DNA of 64,000 bases from Amoebophrya sp. A120 (Eukaryota > Protista > Dinoflagellata): contig CAJINV010000008.1 of assembly GCA_905178155.1 (NCBI GenBank), forward strand, positions 1,984,001-2,048,000, in the 5' to 3' direction. The translations under genes were made by a program, and so were the position numbers. Each line of letters starts with the position of its first letter. The stretch's first letter is position 1. The notes beneath the pieces were generated by a model. That model saw only the letters and a list, made by a program, of their open reading frames with translations. It searched no databases and was not told the DNA's origin. Positions 1 through 63,100 of the stretch are shown here, piece after piece.

Positions 1-1275
1 CTTCGCGCTCTGTCGCAAAAACACAGCTGTTTCTTGTGCAGTCAACCTCTTCAACTCGAAGAACCCTAAAATCATCGTCATCAACATCATCTTAGTTGCT
101 AGCATAGGCATAGGGGGGCTGCTCCTAGGGCTTTTGGAAACAATCAATTACTGTCTCACTCGATACCCTCACTCGTTCGATCTTCTCGATGTTCTTGAAA
201 ATGTCCAGCCCACTGCCCACTGTCGCCACTACCGAGCCGAACACCGCCCGCGCCCCCGATTCGATCGGGCTCTGCAGAACCAAGCCTGCGCAACTGGGCA
301 ACCTGCTCGCCAGGTCCGTGCTGGGCCCGGAGCCGATGGAGCGCCCGAACACGAAGATGCTCGACGGCTGAAACTATCAAATGCAAAAATGTCTGGGTCT
401 GGAAGAATGCAACTTGTGATGCTGAATTTGGATTCCAGAAAAATCTGTATTGCATGAGCAGCAAAGGGAATGCAATTTTTGCTACGTGGAGAGGGCATCT
501 GTCATGCGGAATAGGCATCGCGAAGCCCTCAAAAAATCTGTGATGGTAGGGCATGCATCACAGACATCACGGCCAATGCAAAACATGCGTGACAAGTCTC
601 GCAATCTTCCAGACCCAGACATTTTTGCAATTCATAGAAACTGCAGCTTCTCAGTCAGGTACTTGTACGCGGCGTTTACCGATCGATAGCACCCCTGTTC
701 GGTCGGCTCCCCGTCTGACAGCGAGTACCTTATCGATTCGTTTTCTTCCTTTCTGATTCTTCGATCGATCATCGGGAAAAAAGATCCGAACGTCTCCTGT
801 GGGGAAGATGAACATAGTCGTACTGAGACGGCACAAGGCTGAGCGGAAGCCTCAAGCAAAGAAAAATATGAACTCGTATGCTGTTGCCGGACTTGCCATC
901 TCATCGATTTTTGGCTAAGATGTTGAGCAAACACAACAACACGACTGCTCACAGGCGGTGGAACAACTATGCTCACACTTTGTACCCCTCATATTCGTAG
1001 GCAAAGACGGAACATTCGGTAATCTTCGTGAGCTCCTCCAGGTAGGGTATAGCCAGCCCCACGTCCTCGGCATTGCCGTGTGAGTAGAGGATCACAAAGT
1101 GCTCGCCGTCGTGCGCCCGGCGGGACCGCTCCTCGTTGTTCAGATACACCGCGAGGATGCGGTAATTTTTACTCGTTTTAAAGTACACCACCTGATCGCC
1201 GCGCTCTTCGAGAAAGGGCTGCGAATACCGCGGGTCCGGCGCCGGAAACGCCAGTTGATTCACTACGTTCCCCAT
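1..1275 (-). CDS. ABHD17-like alpha/beta hydrolase (depalmitoylase family), multi-exon, 3' end outside window
   Basis: MGNVVNQLAFPAP N-terminus, LYSHGNAEDVG, YEYEGYSLSDGEPTE, nucleophile elbow GRSIG, LVLQSP. Exons 1275-986, 728-637, 369-167; GT-AG intron 729-985; TIR intron at 375-636. Confidence 0.85.
375..636. mobile_element. Introner/MITE family A (non-canonical intron in ABHD17-like gene)
   Basis: About 32-bp TIR TATcAAaTGCAAAAATGTCTGGGTCTGGAAGA; perfect TSD GAAAC (370-374/637-641); excision gives LQFQPSSIFVFG. Confidence 0.92.
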
Positions 1276-1991
1276 AATCGCTGCTCCCGCGGTGAGCCTG
1301 CTCAGGAAGCAACTACGAACGGGACACCAACCACCTCAAGCAGGCGTGGAGACCCACGTCTTTTTGCGATCGGTTTGCGGGATAGCGATCCTTGACTTGC
1401 GGCAGAAATAAAAGTTCCATCTTCAACATCTTGTTATTTTGAAATAGAGTACGAACAAAGCTAACGCGGAAAAAAAAGCGAATGGATGTGAGATCGACAG
1501 GAGGATTTACTTCCTTATTTTCCAATCCGGATACTCTTCTAGCCTAATTGACAAACAACGAAACTTCTGAAGCAAGTGGCAAATGGCTACAACGCGGCAA
1601 GGTCACTGCACGAGCCAGGAGAAATTTTCACGAAACAGGAGCGGGTGCAACGCGTACATGTCAGGAACAGCTTACATCTTGATCAGCGCGCTTCTGTCGG
1701 GTTGTCAACACAAGAAGGCTGACTGAAAAATTACTGCTTTGATTTTCGCATGTACATTTTGGACACAGATGGCCTTTGTTTCACAGCAAGGGGCGTTGCT
1801 TTGCAAAATCCGTTCCTCGGAATCGAGACCAGTACGAGTGTGCGATAAATCAGAACTCGCCACTGGTCTCGAACTCGGCAGGTACGTTACTATAAACTCA
1901 TCGACCGTGTTAAAGATGATGAATCGTCGAGTCGCAACTTGGTTGCCGATCAGTGCTCGTCTCGTCGTGAAAAGGTCTACGCAGGCTTTTT

Positions 1992-6817
<4,826 letters not shown>

Positions 6818-11390: not shown

Positions 11391-11668
11391 ACCGCGCCGA
11401 CAAATACATGTGGCGAGCTCGCGGTCGCAACAACCGGGCGCAAATATCTTCAGACGGTACCTTTTGTGGAAGTTCAAATTCCAACTTATTCTCAATAGTG
11501 CTACAATGCAACATGTACTTTACTGCCTTGCTATCGATCCTTGTACACCCGGGGTGGGGGTCGTATCCAACTCTGGAAGAAGAGTCAGCATGATTGAATA
11601 TATTTCTTTTTCCTGGGGCAGCTACTAATGCTCAGTATTAGAAGTCAGCAATATTGGACAGAACAATA

Positions 11669-14249: not shown

Positions 14250-17009
14250 CTACAATTCATCTTTCGGGGGCGCGGCGGCCACGGTGGCGGAAACTCCGGC
14301 TTTCGTACTTTCTTCCACCCGCAGCTCACAGTCAGACTTGTCGTCACAGGCTGTTGTCGGAGGGTCTTCTTCGTGCCAGGTCAGTTCCTCATCTTCCCCT
14401 CCGTTCAGGTCTCGCAACCGCTCCGCGAGAAACCTGCGGGCCTTCTGCCGCGACGTCCACTGGAAAATGACGTTTTCGTTCAACGTGAGCTGCACGCACT
14501 CGTCCTGCGGCCCGAACCCCGGTGGCCGGTCGGGCGACTTCTCGCTGGCCCCGAGGGTCGTGCTGTGCTTTTGGTGCACTGTGGCAGCAGCATGAGGATC
14601 CACCGTGTGGTCTTGTTCACCATCGTACTGGTCCCTCAGCCATACCAGCAGCCCGAGACTGCCGCCGAAGGGCGCCAGCACGCGCGTCGCGGTAATCGCC
14701 CCCATCTCCTCCACGACGCTGTAGTCCCGGGTGCAGTCGAAGTTGGTGAGCAAGGCTTCCTCGGGGTCGTTCCTCCGCTTCTCTTCTTCGCGTTTCGCGT
14801 CATCATGGATTTCTTTTATATCGTTCAACCCCACGTCCCGCACCTGCAGTTCCAAGGGCTTCAAAAAACTCCCCTGGAAGAACGACGCGGGGATTCTTGA
14901 TGAAGAACTCCCGTCGACACCACCGGCAGTAGGAGGAGTACGCGCGGCTTTATTCTCCTTTCCGCCGTCCAACGGGATTTCCGGGGCCTTCCAGGCGTAC
15001 ACCTGCAGCCACATGAGCACAGGCAAAATGGTTTCCGCATGGGCGAACGCAAAGCGAAACTTCTTCTCGTTGTTCGGCCCCAGTGAGAGGAAATAGGTCC
15101 ACTCCTGGAAGAAGTTCGCAGCAAACGGCTCCGCCGCCAAATTCGGGTTGCCAAACCCGCTTTTGTAAAAGTGCGCGTAGTCCATCAGCCGCTCCATCTG
15201 CAAGAAATCCGTTTCTTCCCCGAACACCTCGTCGCCCATGCATCCTGTGTGAAAACGTCTCCACCCCCGAGTTGTTTTATGCAAAGTGACATGTTGCCGA
15301 GAATGTTTCTACATGCCGCGCAAGAATCTCGTCATGCGGAGCAGTTTCTGATGCTATGATATGGGATCATCTTCTTGTCATCCTCTAATAGCGATAATGT
15401 GATGCGGCTGTACTAGGTAAACAGGACTACGCTGGGCGCCCATGGCTGTCACGCGCCGCAACAGCTAATAAACCCTATTGATTTCTTTGTGTAGCACCGC
15501 CGCGATCTCGACACTGCGGTGTGGGCGGCCCCATTTCCTTTTACACAGGATACCATGGCCGACTTATTCAGCAGTGCCCGTTCCATGATCGCAAGGTTCC
15601 AAAGAGCGTACGCGTCCGCCGTGGTGAGGTTCCACTTCGTGTGGAGATTGTTTGACGAGCTCTCTGATTGTTCGCCAGCAAAGAGCGTGACGTTCGGCAG
15701 GATGTGTTCGTCGAAATGCTTCTTGAACTCCCGCAGGTACTGCTTGTTTTTCCCCGGGCCGGTTTCCGTGTCGTTTTTCCAGCGCAGGTAGTCTTTGAGG
15801 TGCGCCGCCGTGTGGTATCGTAAGGAAAACTCCCCCCTCCCCATATTGAAAACGTATCTGTCTGAAAATTTGTGACCTCAAATCCTGTCTGTCTTGCAAG
15901 AAGGCAAGTCCAGAGCGCGCCGCGCACTTTCCAGGCGGTTTGTGATGCTGTTGGGCTTAGAGCATACACATTTGCCATGCTAGGCGCCTACGTCAAAACC
16001 TCTCGACTGAGGCTCCTTGGCATATGCCTGCAGTCCTCTCCAGCAAGACAAATCTGATTTGTGTACGGAAATCCAGCATCAGACACTTCGTTTCGGTATG
16101 GGGAGGGGGGATTTTTCCTTTTAATATGTGGACGCGGAATTCCGGGGCGGCGGCCGTGGCGTTCCAGCCGCCCGGCGGGACAATCACCATCTTCGAGCCG
16201 CGCCGCCCCAGCCGGGTCTTGAACCCGACGGTACTGGCGTCGAAGTACCGGAGCCGCTGGTCGTGCAGGGCCAAGACCCGGTCCTCGTGGGTTTTGCCGA
16301 AGGGGTTCTCGCCCAACGCGTCGTGGAGGCCGGCGAGGAAGGCGTTGCCGGACTGGGTGCAGCGCGACTTGGAGCTGCTCTCGTACTGCAGCCGCGTGCT
16401 GTTGTTCGCAAACGAAGACAGCAAAAAGCGCCACTTCAGCCCCTGCCGCGCGAGCTCCTCCCACCCGCGCTCCACCAGCGCGGCGTCCTGTTTCTCAAAT
16501 GCGGCGAGGTCCGTCTGTAGCCACCGGTCGGTCCGCCGGTGTCGTTCGGCGACATGCCGCTTCAGCTTCCGCCACTTGGTCAGCTTCTTGCCGTCCGGCG
16601 TGCGCGTGCCGTGGCGGAAGAGCACGTCCGCCGCCTGCAGGCGCCAGTTGAACCGGGAGTCACGCAGCGCATACGTTTTTTTGGTCGCATTCGCGTCAAC
16701 GGCGTGAAAGTACGAACTCTTTTCGGGCGGATGCGTGAACTTCCGCCCGTACGGATTGTACAGCGCTTCGTTGAAGTACGGCGTCTTGGTGCCGGCGTGG
16801 AACTGCCAGCTCCGCTTCGGGGCGCGGACCGACGCGGGCCTCCAGGACCGGCCATCTCTTGTCGGCTTTGCGTCCGTCGTTGGTGGTCCGCCAAACACCG
16901 ACCCGTACGCGAGGGCCCGCAGAAGAACTGCGGCCGAGGACCATCGCTGGGCACTTCCGCTTCCCGTCGTTCCGGTTTGCGATTTCGGTCTGGCGGGAGA
17001 CATTGGCAT
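14250..17009 (-). CDS. Histidine acid phosphatase, MINPP1/phytase-like, 3 exons
   Basis: Catalytic RHGTRTP motif, SSKSRCTQSG, FAHAET and APFGG motifs typical of MINPP; N-terminal hydrophobic segment; two TIR introns. Confidence 0.8.
15241..15552. mobile_element. Family-D-like introner in MINPP gene
   Basis: (C/T)ATCCTGTGT-AAA TIR; perfect TSD CCATG; excision gives KSAMGDEVF. Confidence 0.85.
15816..16126. mobile_element. Introner family B in MINPP gene
   Basis: TIR AAGGAAAA(C/A)TCCCCCCTCCCCATA; perfect TSD TGTGG; excision gives FRVHTAAHLKDY. Confidence 0.92.
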
Positions 17010-17890: not shown

Positions 17891-18009
17891 ATTTTCCAAA
17901 TGTGGAGCCTAATTAATAACATGCAACCCATGCGGCTTATAAATAGGCAAATACACCAACAACGCACCGTATAAAGTGCATGGGACACATTTTGTAGTGC
18001 GTAGCTGTG

Positions 18010-36062: not shown

Positions 36063-39000
36063 ATGCCCGCGTCGGCGGTAGCGTCGCACTCAAGCATGCT
36101 GGGCACCAGTTCTTCGTCGTCCAGCGATGGCGTCCGCAAGGAGCTGCTGGACGTGTTGTCGGAAGTAAAAACGCGGGTGATGGACACCGTGGGCAGCGTC
36201 GATTTCCCCATGCCGCAATTTATCCTGATCGGGAAGCAAAGTGTCGGAAAATCAAGAATAATAGAAACGCTGGCGGTATGCAAGCAACTCTATAACTTTT
36301 TAAGTGTAGAAGTTTTGGCGCTAGGTCGCGAAAACAAATCTGCTTCCCTTGTCGGTTACATTGTTTGCCTTACCTGATAATGTACTGAGAATGTAACCAG
36401 TGATCATGAATGTATGAATGCTCCTCAACTTACTTCCCACGTGGTTTCAGGGCGAGACCTTCAATTTTGTCTCCGGGACGCTCGGTTCGCGGCGTCCGAC
36501 GGTGCTCGAGTTTCGCAATGTGCCCCATTCCAAGCAAAGCAAGTGGAGCGTGCTGGACAAACAAAGCAACCGGTGGCAGGAGCACCCGGTGTCCCGCGTC
36601 ATGGAGCTGCTGGGCGAGGCACACGAATCGCTGGGGGCCAGTATCAGCGACCAGCCGGTGAATGTCAAGCTCGAGTCCCCCAGCTGCGTGGACATGCAAA
36701 TCGTGGACCTGCCCGGGTTCCGCGAGTTCGCGCTGGACGAAGAAAAGCAGCGGCTCGCGGACGCGATCGAGCGCCTGTATTACAATGAAAAATGCCCCCA
36801 CCCCCGAACTTGGGAGCATTTGTATTGCGAACCTTTCCAGAGGAAGCATTCGCCCTCTTGCATCTATCAGCATCACAGACTTCCAATCGTGAATGGCAAA
36901 AATTTGTATTGCAAAAGATCCCAGCAAGAGCGGCGCTTGTCATGCAAGCGATGCGATATACGCCTAGACCCTGCATCAGAAAGATTATACCCCTTCCATG
37001 CATGGCAAAAACTTTTCATTTGGAAACTTCGCATCAGAAATTTTTGCAACTGTGGGGGCGGTGGGGGCATTTTTCACTGTAATAGCCTGGTCACCCGGTT
37101 CATGGAGGACAAGCGGAACGTGATGCTGTGCGTCGAGCAGGCGGGCGACGCGGCAAATTTGGGAACCTTGAACAAGTGCAAAAAAATCGACCCAAACTTC
37201 GACCGCACGATCCTGATACGGAACAAGCTGGACAAGTAAGTAATACTAAAAATATCCGCTGGGCGGGTCTGTAGTTGTAGTGGTGTTGCTTCATCTATTT
37301 CAACATCGAATCCTTCTTCATCACAATAAACATTGAAGCTTCATGCTGACGTTGTTGAATTTGTCGTCCTCGCCTTGAATTCTTCGTCTACAGCGACGGC
37401 GGAGCTGTACGGGCGGGTCTTGTAAATTAAGTACTCCTGGTGCCCCCACAACAGGTTCTACCGCGACCTGACCCCGGAGAACGTCAACGACTGGCTGGAG
37501 GGTTTTGGCGACCTGCCAAAAAACCTGGAAAAGTTTGCCCTCACCTGTCCGCACTGGCAGGAGGGCCTGGACCAGCCGCCAGAAGGCTTTTCCACCCTGC
37601 GCGCGAAGATGAACGACTATCCCAGAGGAAAAAGGCTATCATAGCATAACAACGTTTTATTGCAAAAATATATAAACACTTACGGATTTTTTTTTGCACC
37701 CCGTTGATCCCGAACAGCACAGCAGGGACCGCCCAGAAGAAGTTTTGCTCGGTTTTTCTTGTCTTTGCATAAGATTATAAATAGAAATGCCACACGATGT
37801 TAGGTTTTTTCTCTGGGATGAAAAGAAGGATGTGCAGATAATAAACGACCTCGGGGTCGGGGACCGGCTGAAGGAGACGGTCGGCTACGCACAGTTCGCG
37901 AAAGCGATGGAAAACCGCATTGAGGAGATGTTTGCGGACGCGATCGGCCCCGTTTTGAAGAAGCTGCGGGAAATATCCTGCGTAAAAACGTCCCCACACC
38001 AGAGTCAGGATGGGGATTTTGCAACACAAGCCTAGGAGTTTTGTGAGTCACGCATGACAAGTTGCACTCCGCAGTGTAGTGCAGGTTAGCAAGTGCAGCC
38101 GCATCACATGTTCATCTGCTCATCCTGTTCACAGCGTCACAAATTCCAAAACACGATTGGCAATGGCTCTCATGGGGATGCGCATTACAAGTCTTTCTGT
38201 CTTTGCAAATCTGCATTACAGCTCTGGCGTGGGGACGTTTTTACCCAGGATAGGAAATGAAGGACAGCATACAGGAGAAGAAATCTAACATGGAAGAGGA
38301 AATCTCGCACACCAACCCCAGCCAAATCTTGAACAGCGTGCGCGAGGCGGGGATGAGCTTCGGCCACGCGTTGAACCACGTGATGGAAGGGTATGTGCGG
38401 AGCGACATGGGCCGAATAACCTTGGAGGAGGAGCTGCGGCAGTTCCACGCAAGCTACAACAGGAACGGAGGTAAGACAGTAGGAGCGCTGTTGAAAAAAA
38501 ATTTGTCGCGGTCGTATGTGTTGGTCCACCTTAGTTTGATGCCTTGACTCGTCTCAGGATCATCTCAGCTGGCATTTGTAAAGAACGAGCCGCTTCTAAC
38601 TTCGTGGCAGAGGACCCCACGAATTTAATACAATCGACATGTAGTCAAGAAACCACAACATCATTTTTATCAGCTGACAAGGACTTCGCGCTGCTTCCCT
38701 CCGAAGACTTTCAGAACATAGACGACTACATCACGTGTTTGCGCGAAGAGCTAAAAGTTCCCGCTATGGACGTGGAGATCAACGGCGGGGCGCAGTTTCG
38801 ACGCCTCATGTTCGAGGTCGAAGTTTTCTGCAGGTAGAGCGAGATTACTGTTGTTCGGGCCTACTTCTTGTCCCCGCGGGACAGATTTTTAATGAAAACG
38901 ACCCAGAACAATTGACTGGAGGTGCAAATACAACTATTGTTCTGGCCAGGAAGAAGTAGAAGCAAATAAGACAATAAAATACGGTTTTTTGTTCATCGGG

Positions 39001-41148
39001 AGCGATGTCACTTCGTATTCACCGAGCACCATCGAAAGAATCAAAAACAAATTTAGGTTTGCGGAGATTTGCGTGGAAACCAAAAAGAAGGACGTAATCC
39101 AGGCCCGGGGTGTGGCCATGCAGTCCCTGACGTGGCGGGATGTAGTGGTCAAGCTGCTCTCCATATCCAGGAAAAAAAGTGTGTAAGTGTAACTTTCTTT
39201 GAGAAACAGCATCACAAATTTGCTCTACATGACAGATAAAACCTGTCACGCATGGCTTGTAAGGGAAAACACACATGAAGAGAGGACTTCATGGCTGTCT
39301 GGCATGACAGGTGTAATTCTGTTGCATGTTCTGCATTACACGCAGTTTTTTTCTTGCACACTCCAACGAAGCCCACCTGCCCATGAAGAAGCGGGTGCGG
39401 TACGTGGGGGAGCGAATCAAGTGGTTTTTCCAAACGCAGAAGGACGTCATCGTAGACTTCATGAAAAGCTTGAAAGGCAGCGCGGACGAGCACATGTATA
39501 GTTTTTTGTTCGTTGTGGAAAGATTCGAATTTTACCGTGTGTTGTTCCGCGCCTTTGATGCGATGTTTCTTTTTGCGTGACGAGTTTGTACTGCACTATC
39601 ATGAGGCGATAGAAGTAGGAAAGAGCGGGTACTAATAAAATTTTCACCTCCACGATCGCTACTCTCAGGTACTCAACGCTGTACTCGAAAACGGTCGCCA
39701 TCATCGAAAACAATGAGATGGTGAAGAACCTGGTTTACGAGACCTTCGACCGGGCGGTGGAGCGGCAATTGTCGCAGTTCATCGAGCTCTTCGACAACAC
39801 ACTGGCTTCGACCTTCAGCAACCCCTGGGTTTTCCTGAAGCGGGCGTCGACCCAGTTGGACGAAGGGTCCCTGGAGGACGTCTGTCTACCCAGCTTCGAG
39901 GACACCAAGGAAAGAATACCGTCGGAAATAGAGTCCCGTAGCGGAATCGATACTATTCTGCAGAAGTGGCTCGCGAGTACTTAGAATATAAGTCAATGAT
40001 TTGTTCAAAAGATAAAGATTGTAGAGGTTTTTACAAATTTCTTCTCCCTGGGTGCAGTTTGTACAAGCATGCGAAAAAGATAAACACGATCTTGCTCCTC
40101 CACCCAGAGCCAGAGCAAGAACCGGGAACAACACGTACATGACCGTAATCCGACATCAGCAAACGATTACTGTGTCTGTTCGTACATGTTTTAACAAGGT
40201 ATTCCGCAAGAGCCGTCGATGATTGACGATGCAGTGGACAAGGCCCAGATGCTGCTGCTGAAGACGTTCCAATTCATCCGCGCCCAGGTGGCGGACCAGA
40301 TCGAGCTCTTCGCGGAGAGTTTCTTCAAACTCCCCATGATGAGGCGTTTGGAGGAGGACATGGCCTCCATCGAGCTTTCCGATATGGACCGCGAGGGGCA
40401 TATGAATGTGTCAGGATCGAAATCGACAAAATCGAAAAATTTGTGATGCATAAAATGTAGGGCACTGGAGGCCTGTATTGGGGAGCAGGCAAATGAGGCC
40501 GATTGTAAGCCTGTTTAGGGGTGTGCAATGTGCTGCCAGAGTAGCATGACAGGAGCAGCCTTCTTTGCCCAAACAGCATGACAGACCGGATTTGAGTGCT
40601 CCCGAAATTTGTCATGCGCCACTTACAAACTGAGGCGCCAACTGGTATCGATTTTATGCATCGCAAGTTTTTCGATTTTGTCAATTTAGATTCTGGCCCT
40701 TCCATAGGGCACGCCGCGCGGCTGGAAGCGCTGCAGCTGGAGTTCGACACGGTGTGCCAGGAGTTCGACGCGGTGGGCGACAGTATCGAAAAGCTGCAGA
40801 CTATGGAACTGTCAGGATTGAAATCGTCAAAGTTGGAATAGTTTGTCATGCATAAAATGCAACGCAGAAAATGCCTGTCTTGCAGAGTAGGCAAGGAAGG
40901 CAGATTGTAAGCCTGTTTCGGGGTAGAAATAGAGCTGCTCAAGTAGCATGACAAAAGGCGTCTTCCTTACCCAAACAGCATTACAAACTGGATTGCGACT
41001 CTACTCAAATTTGTCATGCGTCGCTGAGAAGTTGGGCTTGCAACTGGTAACGATTTTATGCATTAACTTTGTCGATTTCAACTCTGACACATCCATACAG
41101 ACCTTCGCGCTGAAGGCACAGTCCAAGCTGCGGTCCAGGAAAAGGTGA
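36063..41148 (+). CDS. Dynamin-related GTPase (DRP5/ARC5-Dlp-like), 13 exons
   Basis: G1 GKQSVGKS, G2 GSRRPTVLE, G3 DLPGF, G4 NKLD; helical stalk and coiled C-terminus; six GT-AG and six TIR introns all join in frame to TGA at 41146-41148. Confidence 0.85.
36778..37084. mobile_element. Introner family C in dynamin gene
   Basis: TIR TATTACA(A/G)TGAAAAATGCCCCCACC; perfect TSD GCCTG; excision gives AIERLVTRFMED. Confidence 0.93.
37618..37820. mobile_element. Introner family G (aged) in dynamin gene
   Basis: TIR (T/C)ATCCCAGAG.AAAAA; same TIR as 51791-52000; TSD decayed; element+5 nt excision gives KMNDKDVQII. Confidence 0.75.
37974..38252. mobile_element. Introner family D in dynamin gene
   Basis: TIR TATCCTG.GTAAAAACGTCCCCAC.CCAGAG; perfect TSD GGAAA; excision gives KLREMKDSIQ; closely similar to 49409 and 58570 copies. 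Confidence 0.93.
39164..39360. mobile_element. Introner family H in dynamin gene
   Basis: Imperfect TIR TATCCAGGAAAAAAAGTG; perfect TSD CTCCA; excision gives KLLSNEAHLP. Confidence 0.85.
40401..40706. mobile_element. Introner family E in dynamin gene
   Basis: Long imperfect TIR (GACAAAATCGAAAAA.TTG.GATGCATAAAAT); perfect TSD GGGCA; excision gives REGHAARLE. Confidence 0.9.
40802..41097. mobile_element. Introner family E, second copy
   Basis: Homologous to 40401-40706; perfect TSD CAGAC; excision gives KLQTFALKAQ. Confidence 0.9.
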
Positions 41149-49322: not shown

Positions 49323-49877
49323 GACGACATCGTCATGACCAGGTAAGGAAGGATGGGATGGTGCAGGTGGTCGAGTCCGAAGTAAAGGTATAGCTGGATC
49401 GATCTGGTTATCCTGAGTAAAAACGTACCCACACCAGAGTCAGGTTGGGGATTTTGCAACACAATCCTAGGAGTTTTGTGAGTCATGCATGACAAGTTGC
49501 ACTTTGCAGTGTAGTGCAGGTTAGCAAGTGCAGCCGCATCACAGATTCGTCTGCTCATCCTGTTCACAGCATCACAAATTCCAAAACACGATTGGTAATG
49601 GCTCTCATGGGGATGCGCATTACAAGTCTTCCTCTCTTTGCAAATCTGCATTACAACTCTGGTGTGGTTACGTTTTTACTCAGGATACTGGTGTTCACAA
49701 TGCGTACATACGGATCGCGCGTGTGTGAAACAAGGGCAAAAACTCAAACCGTCGACGACCCTGGCATGACGATTGGATTTTTTCGACTCAATTCTATACG
49801 ACATCGACGTTGCTTCATCCCAAAGCGTGACCACAATTTTTTCAGGTGTCAATCAGTTCTTAAATGAAATTTTTCTG
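49323..49877 (+). pseudogene. Diverged duplicate of the CCT4 3' end and 3' flank
   Basis: 49323-49371 matches 47940-47988 (GACGACATCGTCATGACCAGGTAAGG..GGGATGGTGCAGGTGGT); about 49695-49877 aligns to about 48065-48237; interrupted by a family D element. Confidence 0.8.
49409..49687. mobile_element. Family D element in non-coding DNA
   Basis: 32-bp TIR with one mismatch (TATCCTGAGTAAAAACGTA.CCACACCAGAGT); perfect TSD CTGGT. Confidence 0.95.
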
Positions 49878-50593: not shown

Positions 50594-52607
50594 ATGACGG
50601 TCGAAAGCCGGGAGAAAGTTACCCCGGCCCGCCCGCGGTTAGGTGCTTCGACGCCGGAAGATAAGCCCACCGCCGCAACCACCGACTGGACCGCCGGCTG
50701 CTGGACCGCGCGGGTCCTTGAGAAGCCCGAAGTCCCCGTCCAGGAGACGAAGCAGAAGCAGTCCAACATCACCCGCAACAAGAACGACTACTACTGGATC
50801 CTGGGGTTCTACCTGCTGTTTTTCGTCCTCTCTCGGCTCCAGTGGCCCACGCACCTGAAAACCACCGTGCGCGATCGGGAGTACCTGATCGAGGAGATGA
50901 ACAGCCTGTCCGTGTTCGGTCCGTTACCGGACCCGCGAAACGGGGACTGGAACCAGCTCTGGTTCCTCTATTTCCTGCAGACCGCGCTCGCGATCCCGGT
51001 CGTCGTTGCGTGCACCTGGGTGGTGATGTTCGGGTACGACCGCGTCTGCGGATGTCGTGCCACTCGCGGGTCCACTACCACCGGTCCGACGCTCTTGTTC
51101 CAGCTGAAAACCATCGCGGTCAACTGCTGCCTGTTCCTGCCCCTGGCCGACACCCTCGCGGTGTACCTGGTGCACAAGGGCGCGTTCAAGACCTTTGTCC
51201 AGGACTGTCCGCACACCTATCAAAAGGAAAAATCCCCCCTCCCCATATCGAAAACGAAATTTGTGTTGCTGTATTTGTGTAAGAACTGCACGCAGATCGT
51301 AAGCCTAAGGAGGGGGGGGCTCTTGGTGTAGGGGCCTAGCATGGCAGGCGTCTGCCCTATAGGCCTTGCAGCATTACAAAGCGCCTGCATACCCTGGCGG
51401 AGTCTCTGAGTTTGCCCTCTTGCAAGAGAGACAGGATTTGTGGCCACAAATCAGCATCGCAAATCTTTAGAAACATAGACACTTCTTCAGTATGGGGAGG
51501 GGGGATTTTTCGTCTCAATAACACCGCGATGGACTTCTTCGGGGTTTTCTCTTTGAACCCGACGGACCACTTTTACGTCTACCACCTCCGGGACGCGCTG
51601 CTCTGGGCCCTGGGGTTCGAGCTGTGCTGGTACTTCCAGCACCGGGGGATGCACGACAACAAGTTCCTGTGGAAGTTCGGCCACGAGTATCACCACCAGT
51701 GGCGCAAGCCCGAGCACATGATGGGCGTCACCAACTTCGCGTTCGACCATGTGGTGGAGGTTTGGGTTACCATGAGCAGCAGTTTCATTGTACCACACAG
51801 AGAAAAAGCTGGCGTATCAGAGGACTTGTTGTATATGTGTGGAATACCATGAATAGAAGACAGGGCAGATGTTCCTTCGTCGATAGCATGTTGTTTGAGC
51901 TCATTTGCAATATACTTTTATACGAATTTTTGGCTTATAGTTGTTTTTGCATGTTGTAGTTGACAGCGCATCTGCTATGCTAGCTTTTTTCTCTGGGATA
52001 CATCCCGATGCTGTTCTTTCCCATCCATCTGTGGACCATGCGGATCGTGGGTTTTTTCTACATGATCCTCGCGGTGCTGGCCCACTGGGACGGGTTTGCC
52101 ATGCGGTACCACCTGAACCACCACTACTTGGTGGTGAAAAACTACGGTAGCCACGTGCCGATCTTCGACATGTTCTTCGGTACCTACCAGCCAAACTCGT
52201 TTTTTCCGACCTGCGAAAAGCACTGGTATCCGGGGTTCAAACCGGAAGGTCGAACGGGTATCAAATGTTGCAAAAATGTCTGGGTCTGGAAAGTCGCAAC
52301 TTGTCATGCCGTCTTCGGATTCGAAAAAAATTTGTGTTGCATGACCAGCAAGGGGAGTCGACTTTGTGCTACGCGGAGAGGGCATTTGTCATGCAGTATA
52401 CGCATCAGAAACAGCGAGCCCTCAAAAAGTCTGTGATGCTAGGGCATGCATCACAGACGTCATGGGTCATGCAAAATGTGCATGGCAAGTCTTGCACTAT
52501 TCCAGACCCAGACATATTTGCAATCCATAACGGGGGGAAACGACCAAAATGCGAACGACAAAGGCCAGGAGGGGACCACCAGGAAGGAGACTGCAAAGGA
52601 ACAATAA
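50594..52607 (+). CDS. Sterol desaturase / fatty-acid hydroxylase superfamily protein, 4 exons
   Basis: His boxes HRGMH, HEYHH, HLNHH followed by NYG..FDMFFGT; TM helices; all three introns are TIR elements. Confidence 0.88.
51218..51520. mobile_element. Introner family B in desaturase gene
   Basis: TIR GAAAAATCCCCCCTCCCCATA; perfect TSD ACACC; excision gives DCPHTAMDFF. Confidence 0.93.
51791..52000. mobile_element. Introner family G in desaturase gene
   Basis: TIR CAGAGAAAAAGCT.GC.TA.CAGA; TSD CATTG/CATCC; excision gives SSSFIPMLFFP. Confidence 0.8.
52259..52529. mobile_element. Introner family A in desaturase gene
   Basis: TIR TTGCAAA.ATGTCTGGGTCTGGAA; perfect TSD ACGGG; collinear with 375-636. 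Confidence 0.93.
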
Positions 52608-54133: not shown

Positions 54134-57100
54134 ATGTTGCGCGACGCGATGCCTTTTTTGGAAACCGAGGTGATGTTTGACGGACCTGAGAAGGCGGGGA
54201 AAGATGGTATCAATTTTTACAACCACGTCGGTGAAACGAAGACGCCGCACGATTTGTGGAAACAAGACAAACCGAAAAACAAGAAAGTGGTTGCTCGTTC
54301 CTCGCAGAAGTACGTGCTTGCCGCCTTTGCTGGAGTGGCCTTGTTCGACGCAGGTCCCGCGCGCGCTGCGTTTCAAGGAGGGGCTGGTCTAGGGCTTGTG
54401 GGCGGTGGAGGTGCTGGTGCTGCTGAGGATGCTATGCAAAACAAAATAATGAAAGCTACACTTTCAGAATTTGCATCATACCATGTGAAGAGCATAAGGA
54501 CAAGGAGTGAACAAGCTGCCATGTAAATTTACGACTGAATATTTGCATAAGAAGTAGCAGGACTCGATCTAGTGACATAAAAGTCTCACCACCCGGTGAC
54601 TTGGTGTTTGCGAATGTGCATTTTTACACATACCGATCTGATGTGCTAGCGCTAGCGTGCATGAAGTTCAACGAAAAGAAGTCGGAAAGATGGCCAGAAG
54701 CGGGCGCACAACTGCACAGAGCGGTTGGCGTTGAACAAGTCTAAGTTGCTTCAACATTCGCGACAATATCAGCATTGGAGGGCCTTGCAGAAGGAATTCT
54801 GAATGAAGAGATATATGACATCAGGCGTTGTTGCCATTGTGCTGATCTATGAGGCAAATCGTCGTGAAGTGCATAGGAATTGACTCAGCCCGTTGACTAT
54901 GCATCACTCCTGACGTGGTTGTGGCACAGACATGCAAGTGGCTTTTTTTCGTTCGATACGTGGGTACAACGCGCAGGCGCCTTCGTGTCTGAACCGGTAT
55001 GGTGCCATTGTGCGCAATCGGGCTAGTCCTCCAAGTATCAAAATGGTGAGCGACCAGACCACCCCGGAGAAGTTTGTATTGCAAGACTATAAAAATTCAC
55101 TCAGCCATGTTTGTATTGCAAAGCTATAATTCACCATTGCAAGATGGAAACAGATTGAGCATCTGCGCATGAAAATTACGCTTCTAAAGAGAGGGAAAGG
55201 AAGCACGCAGCTTTTGTCACTCTGCATCACAGACGCGTTCCGCCAGTCTGCATCCGATATAGGTCCTGTTGACGATACATGGAAACAAATACACTGCGTT
55301 GTTCTCTCTAGGGATAAAAGGGGCTCTTCTCACTTTGATACTGGGAACGTGGGATCCGTTACTTACAAACCCAGTTTCTGAAGAGGTTGCGGGGTGGAAT
55401 TCGGGAATTCCGTGGCACACGGTATGCATTGCTTCTGATATGTCTGGGTCTGGAAGGATACAGGAAACTTATATTGCACTGATTGTGGAGCAGACAGAAT
55501 CAAAAATCTTCTATCATGCATGAGATGACAGCTGCGAAGGCCGCTCTTCTGGGCTGACCCAAAGAGGAGATTTTGGGTTTTGTGCCGTGGACGGGATCGA
55601 AAAACATGCGCTTCCGCGAAACGAGTACTGCGTTGGCACGCACACATGCACCCGTCCTGTTACGGACCATCGTGGTCGCAGCTAGAGTAAGTATTCAAAA
55701 TGTGCATGGAAATAAAGTCGCCACTTTTCCAGACCCGGACGGCGTTTGCACTTTAGACGCGAGTGGCCCCTTATCGTCTTGCTACAATCATCGTGCTGCT
55801 GATGGCGAAGGTGCGGATGGGGCCGAAGTTGGAGCTTTCGCCACGTGGGCCAGTGGATTTTTTCAGCGGATGCACACAGTCGATATTGTGCGGGAATGCA
55901 ATTGCGAGTCGGGGTACTTTGGTTGTTCCCACTCCCTCTGCACAATGCCGAAGTGCACAACCTACGCGCCTCCACCACCTCCAGCAGCCTCGGCGGGCGG
56001 GTCGGATGGATCATCTTCCGGCGCGGGCGGTTTGCATCTGCCAGGAGGTGGTGGGGCGGCAGCGGGAGACGTGGCTGCCGCAGCTGCAGCACCGGGGACG
56101 CCCTGGTGCCAGGAGGTGAATACCCGGTATGAGGAATACAGGCAGCATCTTCACCAGGAGTACAACAGCCGGTCGTGCGGCATGGGCGAGTTGGCGCGCG
56201 GCCTCTTTAACAGTGGTCGGTACGGAATCGAAGCCACGGGTGCGGCCACTCTGGCCGTGACGATGGGCAGCGCCTACTTTACGGCTCTCGTTTTCGAGAC
56301 GATCACTTTGTTTGGCCGTGGCGCTAGCGCATACGTGGGGAACCGGGCCGAGCATCGCGCTCGGGCGATGCAGGGCGGGCAAATCGAACCGGTTGTCGAT
56401 CCGGCGGAATGGGTGGACGGTCCAGACGCCGTCCCCGGCGCACATCCGGTTGCCGGACCGGCGCCGACACCCAGCCTCGATGCGAGTGTGAACGAGATGG
56501 TGCGCTGGGTTGACTTCTTCCGCGAGCTAAAATGGCTTGCCGACAATGCCGTGCCGCTTGATTTGTACGAGGGAGATGAACATCAAGAGCTGCGACTGCG
56601 GGCTGCTCCGCGGGTCGTAAACATCAACGCCGGATCACCTGGTCGTCAACCTGCTCCTTCTACGGCCCCCGGATCACAACAAGAACGCCTGAATGCCCAT
56701 TTGTTCCAGAAGGTGATGGGCCCTGTACCGGAGGTCACGGCGGGCACGCAAAACCCGCGCGAGCTGGGCGGTCTCCTCACAGATGTGGAAAAAAATCGAC
56801 TGGAGAGCCTGCTGGTGTACAAGGAGCAGATGCCACGTGGAGCTCCGCGTCCGCGCTGGGGACGGGTGCGCAACGAATGGTCGCCGTGGGTTACCAGTTT
56901 CACGGACCGGTGGTTCTTCCGTAACGAGTTTCTGAACTCTGAGGCTCTGTGGCGAGAACTTCGGGACGAGCTCGCGCAACCGGACGCGGCGCTGGCGCTG
57001 CTGAATCCGCTGCGGCTTTTGCAGTACGACAGCAAGTTTTTGTGGCAGGGAGGGTTTGAGTACTCGCCTCAGGAACAAGCGACCTTCGGCCGGAAGTACC

Positions 57101-60100
57101 AGGTTCCGGAGCCGATAGCGCTGAAATTCGAGTTACTGCTGAAGGAAATCCCGAAACACCAGCCCGGAAGAGCGTTCTGGTACGTGCGGAAGACAAAGCA
57201 GTTCATCTCCAAGACCGACCCATCAGTACGCGAGCTCTGCGGCGAGTCGCCCGGAACCGCGCAGCCGGATAATCGTGACGAGCGTCAGTGTGTCCCGGTC
57301 CCCACCGCGGAGCAAGCACGGAAAACGCTGAACTTCTACCTGAACCGCGCGAACAAGTATCAAATGTAAAAATGTCTGGGTCTGGAAGAATTCATGTTTG
57401 TCATGCTTGTCTGGCATGATTCTTAAATCTGTCATGCACGTTACCCAAGCGCTCCGTTTTTTTGTGATGCAGAAGCGCAGTTTGTCATGCAGAATAGGCA
57501 ACACCTAGGAGCTCAGAAACTTGTCATGCTGAGCCAGCATTTGTAGCCTCATCATGAGACGCCACCCAGCATCACAAGTTTCCAGACCCAGACATTTTTA
57601 CTTTTGATAACAAGGGACGGGTGCTCAGCGTGTCGCTTCGTTTCGCTGCGGCGGAGCAGATGACCGCCAGGGGCGAAAATGAACAGTCGCGGCAACTGCT
57701 GCGCGACAACAGTCTTTACCAAGACGAAAAAAGCAAGCCCCCATAGAAGTATGTACTCCGATGCGACTTACTTATTTGTGCATCCGGTAAGTAACACATT
57801 CCCATTCAGGCGGACAAACGCCGGCCTGTTCGCGACATGGGTTAATAATTAATAGATGATGCGTTTATTCATGATCCTGGCATGACAGACTTGCTGACTG
57901 TGTGTAGGCAGAACAGATTTATATATTTTCTTGCCAAGAAAATGTGGCCGAGATGAATCAAAATCTACAACTGAGTAGTTGTAGACTGACACACAGATGA
58001 TAGTTGCGCTTGCGCGTTCTCGTCTTTGATATTGTGCAAGAGCGAGTCCATCATTGTGGTGTTTAGCAAGAAAAAATCCAATGACAGTGCATTACTTTGG
58101 GGCCGCGGCTTTTTTCATTCGGATGCTCGGCGCAGTCGTTTCATTTCGCGGGCTCTGGCAGCCTACGCCCGCATCTTCAAAGATAGTCTCGTCTTGCCTG
58201 CTGGGCGAGGTCGAGAACGCGTGGCTGAAGCCACTATGGACGCATTCGGCCAAGCGGTGCAGGACGGACGCGACGGGAAGGAAGAGAAATTATCCCATCG
58301 CCAGTGGTACTGTCCCATCACACTAGATTTGATTAAGGATCCGGTGGTACTCGGGATTGACTGGGAGAAGGGCGAAGACGGACATGGTTTTGTCCCCGGC
58401 CGTGTGGTGACGGTGAGACAGGGAGTTCGCCAGCTTAGAGCGGGTCTTGTCGCCGGTGCCCGGCGAGCAGTACTGCCCGGACGAAGAAGGGCGGACGATC
58501 ACGGGGCCGCTGGACCAAATGCGGAAGGTGGAGGTTGGGTGCCGCAACATATAAAGTTGCGGCCAAACATATCCTGAGTAAAAACGTACCCACACCAGAG
58601 TTGTAATGCAGATTTGCAAAGACAGGAAGACTTGTAATGCGCATCCCCATGAGAGCCATTTCCAATTGTGTTTTGGAATTTGTGATGCTGTGAACAGGAT
58701 GAGCAGATGAATCTGTGATGCGGCTGCACTTGCTAACCTGCACTACTACACTGCAGAGTGCAACTTGTCATGCGTGACTCACAAAACTCCTAGGTTTGTG
58801 TTGCAAAATCCCCATCCTGACTCTGGTGTGGGTACGTTTTTANAGATGAATCTGTGATGCGGCTGCACTTGCTAACCTGCACTACTACACTGCAGAGTGC
58901 AACTTGTCATGCGTGACTCACAAAACTCCTAGGTTTGTGTTGCAAAATCCCCATCCTGACTCTGGTGTGGGTACGTTTTTACTCAGGATAAAACGTCAGG
59001 CAGGTACAGGCCGGGCCAAATGGACGCCCACCCTTTGCGGTTCCGGCAACCAAGCACAGATACGTTTTTGAGCGCGCCGCCATTCAGCGTGTTATTAACG
59101 AAGCGGGGAACGGCGACGTATACCATCCGCTTAATAGAGAACATCTAGACCGCGATGGACGTGAGTTATACGAATACAAAGAGTTGAAGGACGAGATAAA
59201 CTACGTTGTTCGCGAGGGGCTGCGCGGTGCAAATGAGCACGATATTGTGAGGAAAAATTCTGCCTCCCTATACTCAAAAGAAATATTTGCAATGCTGAAG
59301 TGTGGCCACAACCCACAAGTCAGGTCTCTACTCCTGCTACCTGCTCTGTGTCCGAGTCCCATCTGTCATGGTCGGACACTTTCTACATTTTCGCATCACA
59401 AATTTCCGGTTTGCGTATGGGAGTGGGATTTTTTTCATTTTGATTCACGAGCGTGCCGCCAACGGCCAGGAGGCATTCAGGAAGTTGTTCACAGAACCAG
59501 AGTTCCTTATTGGTGCGACACGGTACAACGATCGCATCCAAGCGCTCCGCAACGAAGCAGCGCCGTCCGGGCGCAGTAGACCGACGCGTCTCACGAACGA
59601 GGAGAAGCGTGGCAGACACGAATTTCTCGCTGCTTCGCTGGTAGCCATGGGCGAGAGCATGGGGGGGCTGTGGCAGGCTGAGGATAGCGGAGCGCCGGCG
59701 CAAATGACGATGGAACAACGGCCAGCGCAAATTGAAGGCCACGGCCAGGAGCGGCTGAGCAACCTCCTGCGGCAGTCGGTCGACGGTCTGCGCGAGAAAG
59801 CTATGCATCGCAAATGTCCAACATCTCGAGGATCAGCGTCTGGGTTTCATCATGGAGCGTTTTCTCCAACCGATCGGATTTTTTGTATGGATACACTATG
59901 ATCCCATCATCGACATGCAGCAAATCTGCGTCATGAATGCAGAAAATATCTTGATCTCGTCTTTCTGGCATGATGCTTGGCGTAGCATAGCTTCTGTGTC
60001 TGTTTTGTACACCGAGCTTGTTGTACTGCTAAGTAGGTGAGAACAAGATGCAGTAGAAGTCAATAAGAGCCGCCTGGCAAGGGTTTTTTACATTTAAATG

Positions 60101-63100
60101 CCTTGTTGATCATGATCCTTATGGACTCGGGAAGCCCCTACTGTAGCGATGCAAATCGACGCCGGCCAAAATTTTGAATTCTGTATTATCGGCTCCGAGA
60201 TTTGTAGAAACCCAGAGAGCAGAACCACGAGTTTTATTGTGTTTGCGCGTGATACAGACACAACTCTTGCTCGAGAACGAAAATAACCCGCAACTACGCG
60301 AGCAGTTGATGGAAACACAGGTGCCCAGCATGGTGGACATTCAAAGTACGTTCGGCCGCAAATCAGTCGCGACAAGACTGGCAGAGTGCGCCGCTGCATG
60401 CGGGGACCGGCTGAACCCCACCGGCAGCAGGAGCTGGGACAACGTGGTCAACCAGGTGCCTGGATTTTCTAGAGCGCGACGACAAGAGCCGCTGTCCGAA
60501 GAAACGAGTAAGCAAGTCCTGGTGCTTGCGCTGACCCAGAAGCCACCGGTCGTGGACAGTACTGGCGCTGGCGGCGCGACAATGTCGGTGGTATGCCTTG
60601 CAAATTTCGATCTGGTGGGTCTGGAGAGTTCTGATGCTAGTTTGGTAAGTGTGGTAAAACGACCGTCAAAAAAGCTGTAGAAAAGTGTCAAGTACTATTT
60701 TTTTTTCATGATCTTCAATGGGTCTCCTGATAGTTGGGATGTGCAGATGAAAATACGTGCTGCACAAGCAAGTCGCGCTTGTTTTCCGAAGACGTGCTAG
60801 AGGTTAGACCTATGATTCAGACGAGTCGTATAGAAAATGTATATTCTTGAATGATTTTGATATTCTATTCCGATATTTCCAGTATTCTATACCCACCAGA
60901 TCGATATTTCCAGTCCATAAGTGGGCACCGGCACCAAAACGTGGTGGCAGTTCTCTGCGCTGGCCCGGTTAGACGCACAGCAGAGTTGGCTCGACCTTTT
61001 GAAGCGCGCGTCAACGAACCAGTTGAGACCAGACATCAACAAAAAGATCAAGGACCTACAAGGTCTCTACTTGCAGATTCCCGGGAATGTGTACTATGGC
61101 CACACGGACAACTGCTGCGAGAGTTTAGAAGGTGAAACCGTGACGGGGCAGCGGTTCTGCGGACCCTGCGGCGGCTGCTGCGCTTCGACTTGCACCAGGC
61201 TAGTGGACGGTGGTCTCTGCCAAGACATGGAGAGCTGCGCGAAATGCTGTCACTGGGGCGGCTGCTTCAACTTGAGTGGCGACCGTGCGCAGGGAAGCGG
61301 GGCCAATCTGGTGGAGATGCTCGTGTCTTCGATGGGGGATGCTGACGCCTTGAAGCAACGCGACAGGTTTTCGTTGGAGGATCTCGTGCTGCAGACTTAT
61401 GAAAACTTCGAAAACCGCATGCAGAGGCAGACTTCCGAAACGAGAAGGAACATGTTTGGCAACAAGACCGAGGAGACCGGTTATCCTGCAGAAAAACGCA
61501 CCCACACCAGAGACAGAGTTGTATATTGTATATATGTATGTATGCCACCCAGAATAAATATCTCTCACGCGGCGGTCCCATGAGTGGCATTGTGTAGCCG
61601 TTTTTGGATGGAAGCCACTTCTTGTGCTGTGTATAAAAATCAGCAGAGAGTGGAAGAACAAGTCGATCCGCCGTGCTGCGGCTTTTACTAGCTAGGCACG
61701 ACTGCCTCATCTCCAAACTTGTCATGCGGAGCTCGCGGAACCTCTGGACTTTTCTAATAAACCTTATATCTTGCCTAAGGGATCGTGGGTGCGTTGTTTT
61801 TACACAGGACACCGTTGGAGACCAGTGTTGCGACACTTGCTGTGAATGGATCGGCCGGCCGCGTGCTCGTATTGCCAATCCGCAGGAACTGCACACGATG
61901 GACATGCCGCTAAGTCACGGAAGTTTGCGCAGTCGCAGGCTAGAGCCACACGCCGAGGCGTGTGCCAGATGTGATCAGTGTTGGGCGCACTGCTGGGGCA
62001 AGACGTGCTGCCGGGACATTGTCGGCAACTGCTGCTTCCGCAATTGTCCGGGACAGGTACTGGACGGCTGCGTCGGTTGCGCTTCAACGGCGTGCAACGC
62101 GACCCGTACCGGGTACCGAGCGGCCCGTTCTTGGGCCGGCCGGGGGCCCTGCATCCGCGGGTCCGGCGCTTTGGGTTGCCGTCTGTGTGATAGTGCTGGC
62201 AGAGCCGGGTTGCATTTCTGCGAGCAAGGAGTTTTCTCCGTGCTCGGGGCCCTGGCGTACATCACGGGCGTGGGTGTCACCTACGCTGGGCAGTCATGCG
62301 AGCTCATGGGGAGGGGGGCCGGGTACTGCTGCTGCAACGTCTGCAGGCAGGCGCAATTGATTGGACAAGGCTGTGTGCGGGCGGGTGCGTGCGTTGGCAA
62401 GGAGTGTGTGAAGTGCGGCGTCTCGGCAGGCAGGACGGCCACGGCCGTCGCGGTCGGCGGATCCAGTGCCCCGCCCTATCAACTGCAAAAATGTGTGGGT
62501 CTGGAAGATTGCCAGGTTTGTCATGCATATTTTGAATGACCCATGATGTCTGTGATGCATGCCCTATCATCACAGATTTTAAGAACAATTTGTGATGCCT
62601 CTACCGCATGAGAAATGCCCTCTCCGCGTAGCACAAACTGGAGCCCTCCTGCTGGTCATGCAACACAAATTTTTTTAGAATCCAGAGACAGCATTACTTC
62701 CAGACCCAGACATATTTGCAATGCATACGCCCCAACAGCAGACCATGAACGACGGTGGCGCGCAAGCGACATCAGGGGCGCCCTCGCAGCAGACCGACGA
62801 TTGGGGACTTCGGCCGGACGAACAGCCCGGCTGTTGGCCCTGCGTATGGAGTTCTCGCCACATCGAATGGACGGGGCGACCGAGCACGCCGGCAGCCGAG
62901 GCGCCAAACGGCTCGGCCGTCGTTTCGGGACTGAAGGAATGTGGACGAAAATGGTGCCCGGCCGGAGTTCTCGGAAGCTGTTGCTGTCCTGCCGTCGCTT
63001 GTTCGGCCGCGGTTCTTGCTGATGGTTCCAACCTATCCTATTGAAAATTGCTTTCGCGCCCTCGTCCTCCCCCAAGAAGAAGACAAGTTTATTTCACTTC

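What the first reader, a model, noticed from the sequence alone, without database searches (positions are those of the whole stretch)
375..62727. The same element works as an intron in either orientation
Family A: copies 375-636 (host on minus) and 52259-52529 (host on plus) have the same plus-strand internal sequence, and 62477-62727 (host plus) is the reverse complement. Family B: 4114 (host minus) and 51218 (host plus) share orientation. Family D: 37974 and 58570 are inverted, with both hosts on plus. A polar spliceosomal intron (donor, branch point, acceptor) should not be strand-symmetric. This points to recognition of symmetric features such as the TIR stem or TAT/ATA ends, possibly by cut-and-ligate chemistry (inference).
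Basis: partly seen in the sequence, partly recalled or inferred. Interest (0 to 1): 0.8.

Follow-up and report, generated by a model that had tools for sequence, protein, structure and literature searches.

The report
Transposon introns spliced in either orientation
In a marine parasitic alga-relative, copies of the same small transposon sit in genes facing either way and are likely cut out of the RNA exactly both ways, likely because their mirror-image ends give the splicing machinery the same start signal whichever way they face; how these known odd introns are removed is an open question.

Summary
Observation confirmed. The window matches Amoebophrya sp. A120 (three deposited proteins 100% identical). 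The elements are its published introner elements: TAT...ATA inverted ends, 5-nt target duplication (TSD). All three families lie in both orientations relative to host genes. Removing element + one TSD copy restores every named frame. Deposited models do this at 11 of 11 junctions. One RNA contig shows it directly (61482); six more are indirect. No family has both orientations shown by RNA here. New: mismatched TSDs fix one polar register, N-TAT...ATA-NNNN. It puts TA at +2/+3, as in the GTA of 12 of 12 canonical introns. That TA and the A at -7 are invariant (25 of 25), with no acceptor AG. Best reading: a relaxed U1-less spliceosome (0.55). Rival: a precise version of RTCB-dependent SOS splicing (0.3). 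Lariat versus end-chemistry sequencing decides.

The parts
375..636 (-). Family A introner, TSD GAAAC/GAAAC; host alpha/beta-hydrolase-like gene; transcript reads orientation R
   Evidence: 115 codons open before, 83 after removal; weak Pfam; no RNA laid
52259..52529 (+). Family A introner, TSD ACGGG; 24 codons before the stop of a fatty-acid-hydroxylase gene; orientation F
   Evidence: deposited model P0001 skips 276 = 271+5 nt; gene not covered in RNA runs X4/X6
62477..62727 (+). Family A introner, TSD CGCCC; orientation R
   Evidence: X6 record 16 stops at 62471 (TSD edge) and continues 3138 nt, joint row not shown
4114..4435 (-). Family B introner in alanyl-tRNA synthetase; orientation R
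   Evidence: Pfam tRNA-synt_2c collinear across it; no RNA laid
51218..51520 (+). Family B introner in fatty-acid-hydroxylase gene, upstream of the catalytic domain; orientation F
   Evidence: P0001 skips 308 = 303+5; homologues align on both sides
15816..16126 (-). Family B introner in histidine-phosphatase gene; orientation F
   Evidence: (His_Phos_2 positions 2-121 before, 225-332 after)
59243..59445 (+). Distant family B copy; orientation R; 3' end ATT
   Evidence: reverse score 46 vs shuffle maximum 26; RNA depth arithmetic
37974..38252 (+). Family D introner in dynamin-like gene; orientation F
   Evidence: P0032 skips 284 = 279+5; homologues run through without a gap
58570..58990 (+). 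Family D introner, orientation R; TSD AAACA/AAACG; holds a 138-nt duplication at an N
   Evidence: X6 record 15 stops at 58564 and continues 700 nt; depth fits splicing; register k<=4
49409..49687 (.). Family D copy in a diverged duplicate of the CCT4 3' end (probably non-coding)
   Evidence: X4 record 12 stops at 49403 and continues 183 nt
15241..15552 (-). Distant family D copy, orientation F; host-sense ends TAT...ATG
61482..61811 (+). Distant family D copy, orientation R; the one joint shown directly in RNA (61480 to 61816, 335 nt); register k>=4
   Evidence: table 8 record 16
37618..37820 (+). Old introner in dynamin gene, TSD ACGAC/AAAAG; register k=3 or 4
   Evidence: model has N-E-K-D; right end set from the model
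51791..52000 (+). Introner inside the hydroxylase domain, TSD CATTG/CATCC; register k<=4
   Evidence: (Pro shared with 5 of 8 homologues)
59802..60254 (+). Old introner, TSD AAAGC/CAGAC; model uses k>=4 although GC-AG is available at k=3
   Evidence: right end set from the model
60592..60919 (+). Introner, TSD GGTGG/AGTGG; register k>=1
36778..37084 (+). Introner in dynamin gene
   Evidence: 312 = 307+5
39164..39360 (+). Old introner in dynamin gene, 3' end ACA
40401..40706 (+). Introner in dynamin gene, same family and orientation as 40802
40802..41097 (+). Introner in dynamin gene
3582..3728 (-). Introner in alanyl-tRNA synthetase; related to 33954, same orientation relative to host
33954..34086 (+). 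Introner, 5' end TAC
28764..28999 (+). Introner in papain-family protease gene; interior reverse to 57358 with both hosts plus
57358..57609 (+). Introner, very high-copy ends
24603..24987 (+). Introner whose site is empty in a tandem paralogue near 26350
55423..55757 (+). Old introner, right end less certain (TSD 3 of 5)
63717..63970 (+). Probable introner; right end uncertain, left out of the n=25 counts

Best explanation
These are Amoebophrya A120 introner elements, short inverted-repeat transposons with a 5-nt target duplication that lie in genes in both orientations, and they are likely removed exactly from the RNA in both, likely by a relaxed U2-type spliceosome that reads signals inside the inverted repeat itself. 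Steps: (1, shown) the element sits in an exon between two copies of 5 nt. (2, shown) Because the ends are inverted, either orientation presents TAT at the 5' end and ATA at the 3' end. (3, predicted) The ends pair into a 20-30 bp stem that brings the exon ends together, possibly standing in for the U1 snRNA reported missing. (4, inferred from six mismatched-TSD junctions) The cut is always N|TAT at the donor and ATA-NNNN| at the acceptor, so one TSD copy is removed and the coding sequence is restored. (5, inferred) N-T-A mimics the G-T-A donor of the canonical introns with +1 relaxed; the invariant A at -7 would be the branch point, and the 3' cut is set by distance, not by AG.
For: Register (k = TSD bases kept from the left copy): RNA contigs give k>=4 at 61482, k<=4 at 58570, k>=1 at 60592; deposited models give k=3-4 at 37618, k<=4 at 51791, k>=4 at 59802. 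Only k=4 fits all six. 12 of 12 canonical introns checked begin GTA. In host sense, 25 of 25 elements keep T and A at +2/+3 and 25 of 25 keep A at -7, while the mirror partners of +2/+3 at the 3' end have decayed in 6 elements against 0 at the 5' end (sign test p=0.03). All 9 commonest A120 non-canonical end pairs in Farhat Table S4 are NT-xx; all 9 for strain A25, whose repeat starts TTA, are TT-xx, so +2 T/+3 A seems to hold in two strains with different offsets from the repeat (my inference). Removal is exact at 11 of 11 model junctions and at the one RNA joint. Old copies with weaker folds (61482 z -1.7, 59802 z -2.3) keep the register. A120 keeps U2, U4, U5, U6 and Prp8 and lacks U1 (PMC7789003 section 10, Table S6). 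Fritillaria TIR introns with non-canonical ends are said to be spliceosomal (PMC11282704 section 6).
Against: No G at +1 (C8, G8, A7, T3 of 26) and no acceptor dinucleotide (13 kinds in 26), more relaxed than any spliceosome I saw described. Canonical introns here have A at -7 in only 5 of 12, so there is no shared branch-distance rule. The stem is predicted to bury TAT and ATA in many copies. A staggered endonuclease cut would also give a fixed polar register. The 5'/3' asymmetry is small: 4 against 0 (p=0.125) among the 17 coding copies found by a scan blind to the end triplets, and my seeds were partly picked by eye. Gene models are not raw data, and three right ends were set from them. Table S4 ends may reflect aligner choices.
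Confidence: 0.55

Rival explanations
1. A spliceosome-independent cut-and-ligate system, a precise relative of animal SOS splicing, recognises the paired inverted repeats, cuts 1 nt before and 4 nt after the stem and joins the exons with an RtcB-type ligase.
For: SOS splicing removes DNA transposons from mRNA on inverted-repeat pairing, at non-GU-AG sites, with RTCB (PMC12779559 abstract, section 4 parts 1-2 of 4, Discussion). The stem is predicted in both orientations for 14 of 15 elements folded, 18-30 expected end-to-end pairs. Ends have no fixed dinucleotide at +1 or at the acceptor. 59802 passes over an available GC-AG. 49409 appears spliced from a probably non-coding transcript. Euglenid stem introns leave as circles, not lariats.
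Against: SOS splicing is described as imprecise, leaving indels; here 11 of 11 model junctions and the RNA joint are exact, though contigs and models show only the main form. It does not explain why the register matches the canonical GTA donor, nor the apparent different offset in A25. A at -7 is never G in 25 copies although G would still pair.
Confidence: 0.3
2. Only one orientation is spliced well; the other survives in tolerant places (C-termini, poorly conserved or silent genes) or is mostly retained.
For: 52259 is 24 codons from the stop, after the conserved domain; its gene has no coverage in X4/X6. 58570 and 62477 lie in a gene with no homologue found (1 hit, itself). RNA runs hold contigs with retained element ends (loose ends).
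Against: Family B has R in alanyl-tRNA synthetase (4114; one alanine ligase listed for A120 in the supplement) and F upstream of a conserved catalytic domain (51218). Family D has F inside a conserved dynamin (37974) and R spliced in RNA (58570 indirect, 61482 direct). Orientation counts are balanced: A 1 F/2 R, B 2/2, D 2/2.
Confidence: 0.07
3. The elements are removed from DNA (like ciliate internal eliminated sequences) or are self-splicing RNAs.
For: Exact removal of element plus one TSD resembles DNA excision; the RNA folds strongly (z down to -13).
Against: DNA-like run X1 contigs run unbroken from the flank 25 nt into each element at depth 41-45, the background depth (contigs drop rare variants and 219 joints were not shown). 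No Rfam match in the window. Interiors differ between families and work reversed, so a conserved ribozyme core is unlikely (inference).
Confidence: 0.08

Closest known systems
Amoebophrya A120 introner elements (Farhat et al. 2021, PMC7789003; read: abstract, sections 10-12 and 16, supplement parts 1 and 3 of 5 and term searches; figures not held)
   Same: Same strain by protein identity; inverted repeat starting TAT then an A run; 5-bp direct repeat; non-canonical ends; thousands of copies.
   Different: The text I read says border positions are variable or unknown and does not discuss element orientation against the host ('strand' 0 hits; 'orientation' 4 in the main text and 3 in the supplement, those shown being about gene order). 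Here one fixed register is inferred. Figures 3 and S19-S25 were not visible and may show part of this.
Two-way introners of Aureococcus and Polarella (bioRxiv 2020.10.14.339549, passages; Huff et al. 2016 not held)
   Same: TIR transposons with TSDs that make introns in either orientation.
   Different: They recruit GT/GC/GA and AG from the element or the TSD, so the TSD sequence is constrained; here neither end is canonical and the TSD is free.
SOS splicing of C. elegans and human cells (PMC12779559; abstract, section 4 parts 1-2 of 4, Discussion)
   Same: Inverted-repeat transposons removed from mRNA at non-GU-AG sites; interior dispensable.
   Different: Imprecise with indels; a fail-safe for rare insertions. 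A120 removal is exact where checked and serves about 30,000 introns (Farhat count). The paper does not mention introners or Amoebophrya.
Fritillaria borealis non-canonical introns (seen through a review section, and preprint passages)
   Same: Transposon TIRs form the intron ends; removed despite non-GT/AG ends.
   Different: Ends lean to AG-AC/AG-AT; the primary paper was not read, so orientation and branch position were not compared.
Euglenid nonconventional introns (review section; PMC11170887 passages)
   Same: Terminal stem, TSD-like repeats, non-canonical ends.
   Different: Released as circles, with pyrimidine|purine junctions and CAG/CTG motifs; here TAT/ATA ends and a free +1 base.

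Membership tests
Amoebophrya A120 introner elements | Genome is A120 | tested here: met
   P0001, P0032, P0153 named A120, 100% identical to window exons
Amoebophrya A120 introner elements | Terminal inverted repeat starting TAT, then about 7 free bases and an A run | tested here: met
   position counts for 25 elements
Amoebophrya A120 introner elements | 3-5 nt direct repeat at the borders | tested here: met
   5-nt repeat, 0-1 mismatch in the 16 loci (a search criterion); up to 3 mismatches in old copies
Amoebophrya A120 introner elements | Repeated in the genome | tested here: met
   summed contig depth 2e4-3e5 over element bins against about 45 elsewhere in X1 (not a copy number)
Amoebophrya A120 introner elements | Removed from mRNA | tested here: met
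   direct for 61482; by depth arithmetic for 58570, 59243, 59802, 60592; by contig edge for 62477, 49409
Canonical U2 spliceosomal intron | GT/GC...AG ends | tested here: not met
   1 of 26 at any register, and that model does not use it
Canonical U2 spliceosomal intron | T at +2 and A at +3 as in this genome's donors | tested here: met
   25 of 25 under k=4; canonical 12 of 12 GTA
Canonical U2 spliceosomal intron | Lariat at a branch adenosine; snRNP dependence | not testable with these tools
   needs lariat sequencing or depletion
Two-way introners (Aureococcus/Polarella type) | Introns in both orientations | tested here: met
   RNA shown for one orientation only
Two-way introners (Aureococcus/Polarella type) | Canonical splice sites from element or TSD | tested here: not met
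SOS splicing | Paired inverted terminal repeats in exonic RNA | tested here: met
   predicted folds only
SOS splicing | Imprecise, many sites, indels | tested here: inconclusive
   all 12 junction records (11 model, 1 RNA) exact, but contigs and models hide minor forms; the raw-read run X9 did not cover the genes
SOS splicing | Needs AKAP17A, CAAP1, RTCB | not testable with these tools
   no whole genome held; no genetics
Euglenid nonconventional introns | Excised as full-length circles | not testable with these tools
   no raw reads of this strain

The most novel reading that the evidence does not exclude
A120 has a precise, spliceosome-independent transposon-excision system, an exact counterpart of animal SOS splicing, that has become a main route of mRNA maturation for tens of thousands of introns and makes any insertion of these elements harmless in either orientation.
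Probability: 0.3. Interest if true: 0.88.

Novelty: new variant of a known kind. Interest (0 to 1): 0.56.

Why it matters
How A120 removes its tens of thousands of non-canonical introns without U1 was left open in the genome paper. Two-way function shows that the interior carries no needed signal, and the fixed register N-TAT...ATA-NNNN names the few bases to test. Either answer matters: a spliceosome that needs only xTA, one adenosine and a stem would mark the limit of splice-site relaxation; a precise RTCB-type route would extend SOS splicing to protists as a routine pathway. Both would explain how one transposon group could flood a compact genome at little cost. The elements themselves, and two-way introners as such, are not new.

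Tried and rejected
No whole genome is held, so no genome-wide orientation count. No listed holder was on record as RNA; X4 and X6 are taken as cDNA because they skip 7 GT-AG introns of CCT4. Raw-read run X9 gave 92 reads, nearly all on one repeat end, so no splicing efficiency. Including DNA-like X1 crowded the joint table (219 rows not shown). RNA over the dynamin gene and over 1-20000 was not obtained, which leaves F-orientation copies without RNA evidence. The representatives search never ran (queue full, 6 tries), so the histidine-phosphatase host rests on Pfam and open frames. PDB sequence search of two synthetase exons found nothing; Pfam settled it. 45438 looked like an old element but RNA shows a canonical GT-AG intron 45437-45610; dropped. 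First right ends for 37618 and 59802 were wrong and were reset from gene models; one search used the wrong 59802 end, corrected. Dynamin intron near 39494 was missed by my script and is not in the 12. Canonical sites per orientation rejected. Palindromic interiors rejected. Rfam: 0 matches. Earlier scan notes: none. Literature: 8 searches; none listed a paper on orientation or register of A120 introners, but subscription papers, figures and bioRxiv supplements were not visible.
Full report
Origin. Exons of three window genes are 100% identical to deposited proteins named Amoebophrya sp. A120. The elements fit the published A120 introner elements: inverted repeats starting TAT, short direct repeats, non-canonical borders, U1 not found (PMC7789003, sections 10-12 and 16).

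Anatomy. A strict scan gave 16 loci with TAT...ATA ends, an inverted repeat and a 5-nt TSD. Looser searches and gene models raised this to 27 candidates, 26 in coding genes. A scan blind to the end triplets recovered 18 of 26 listed loci among 21 hits; block-shuffled controls gave 1, 3 and 7 hits. A motif TGTNATGC occurs 66 times in 7.6 kb of elements against 8 in 56 kb outside, on both strands; it may be a transposase site (inference).

Orientation. Calling F the case where the transcript reads the plus-strand sequence of 375, 4114 or 37974: family A has 52259 F, 375 and 62477 R; family B has 51218 and 15816 F, 4114 and 59243 R; family D has 37974 and 15241 F, 58570 and 61482 R. 59243, 15241 and 61482 are distant members (scores 46-53 against shuffle maxima 26-39). 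28764 and 57358 are a further reversed pair with both hosts on plus. Two pairs show one relative orientation only (3582/33954, 40401/40802).

Are both orientations removed? Taking out element plus 5 nt leaves open frames on both sides for all seven named copies, and each holds stops in the host frame (frame read by hand). Deposited models skip exactly element+5 at 11 of 11 junctions, including 51218, 52259 and 37974; for 3 of the 11 I set the element end from the model. Homologues run through 37974 without a gap. Pfam is collinear across 4114 and across 15816 and 15241. In RNA-like run X6, one 4600-nt contig joins 61480 to 61816, a skip of 330+5. Its pieces, and those of a 1198-nt contig, stop at the TSD edges of 60592, 62477 and 58570 and continue. 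Placing the unlisted remainder as spliced predicts bin depths 3.99, 13.49, 21.26 and 16.72; observed are 3.99, 13.5, 24.3 and 16.7; retention predicts 0, 0.05, 33.6 and 16.72. So R copies have RNA support and F copies have model and homology support. No family has both shown by RNA here. The hydroxylase gene had no RNA coverage. DNA-like run X1 runs unbroken into the elements at background depth, against DNA-level excision.

Register. Where the two TSD copies differ, the joined sequence shows where the cut falls. With k bases kept from the left copy: 61482 k>=4, 58570 k<=4, 60592 k>=1 (RNA; the tool places joints leftmost); 37618 k=3-4, 51791 k<=4, 59802 k>=4 (models). Only k=4 satisfies all six: intron = N-TAT...ATA-NNNN. 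The empty site in the paralogue of 24603 fits k>=1. At 59802 a GC-AG pair is available at k=3 and is not used. Under k=4 the first base is free (C8, G8, A7, T3) and the last two are free (13 kinds in 26). The TA falls at +2/+3, as in the GTA that starts 12 of 12 canonical introns (7 from RNA, 5 from the dynamin model). In 25 elements read in host sense (63717 left out), +2 T, +3 A and the A at -7 never vary. The 3' mirror bases of +2/+3 have changed in 6 elements; +4 has changed in 2. The 6:0 split gives p=0.03; in the triplet-blind subset it is 4:0, p=0.125. The published end table agrees: all nine top A120 pairs are NT-xx, all nine top A25 pairs TT-xx, with an A25 repeat starting TTA; aligner bias cannot be excluded.

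Mechanism. Symmetry does not argue against a polar machine when the signals lie within the inverted repeat; such two-way introners exist. The match to the GTA donor, the exactness and the retained U2/U4/U5/U6 favour a relaxed spliceosome with the stem bridging the ends and A-7 as branch point (0.55; chemistry untested). Against it: no G+1, no AG, canonical introns have A-7 in 5 of 12, and the stem may bury the signals. One-way splicing (0.07) and DNA excision or self-splicing (0.08) are unlikely.

Novelty. The elements are known and two-way introners are known. I found no statement of two-way function or of a fixed register for A120 in 8 library searches, in term searches of PMC7789003 and its supplement, or in passages of PMC12130899 and PMC9860276. 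The figures of PMC7789003 were not visible; its legends call the borders variable. Also seen: passages of bioRxiv 2024.09.05.611473, where another Amoebophrya has canonical introns and U1. The name ABHD17-like or alpha/beta hydrolase for the host of 375 rests on a recalled motif and a sub-threshold Pfam hit; CCT4 and U-box-like are recalled labels, from no call.

Verdict. Real feature, known element class, new and testable detail. Interest 0.56.

Noticed in passing
window 58705-58981: Exact 138-nt duplication around the only N in the window, inside element 58570; most likely a scaffolding artefact.
   Followed up: partly
window 49310-49870: Diverged duplicate of the CCT4 last codons and 3' region (47935-48235) carrying family D copy 49409; an RNA-like contig stops at its TSD and continues, so it may be spliced from a non-coding transcript.
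   Followed up: partly
window 24070-25298 and 25990-26627: Tandem Cys-rich paralogues; element 24603 is in the first and absent from the matching site of the second.
   Followed up: partly
window 45437-45610: Canonical GT-AG intron of CCT4 that starts GTAT after AGCTG and holds a second AGCTG near its end; possibly an old introner that gained a canonical acceptor, possibly chance.
   Followed up: partly
window 51791: The intronic last base of the left TSD is G where the exonic copy has C, giving a GT start under k=4; may show drift toward a canonical donor.
   Followed up: no
window 18219-18508: AT-rich 290-nt inverted repeat without TAT/ATA ends in the intergenic stretch where gene blocks switch strand; G-rich tract at about 17700-17880 beside it.
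   Followed up: no
window 57358-57389: Raw RNA run X9, which does not cover this window's genes, has about 90 reads sharing this repeat end with other flanks: a related element retained in a transcript of another strain or locus.
   Followed up: no
window 58236-64000: Long plus-strand gene with at least seven introners, a U-box-like motif split by 58570 (recalled pattern; no Pfam hit) and Cys-rich stretches; no homologue found beyond its own partial model.
   Followed up: partly
window 30400-32300: GC-rich (up to 65%) intergenic stretch with short repeats; no Rfam match.
   Followed up: no
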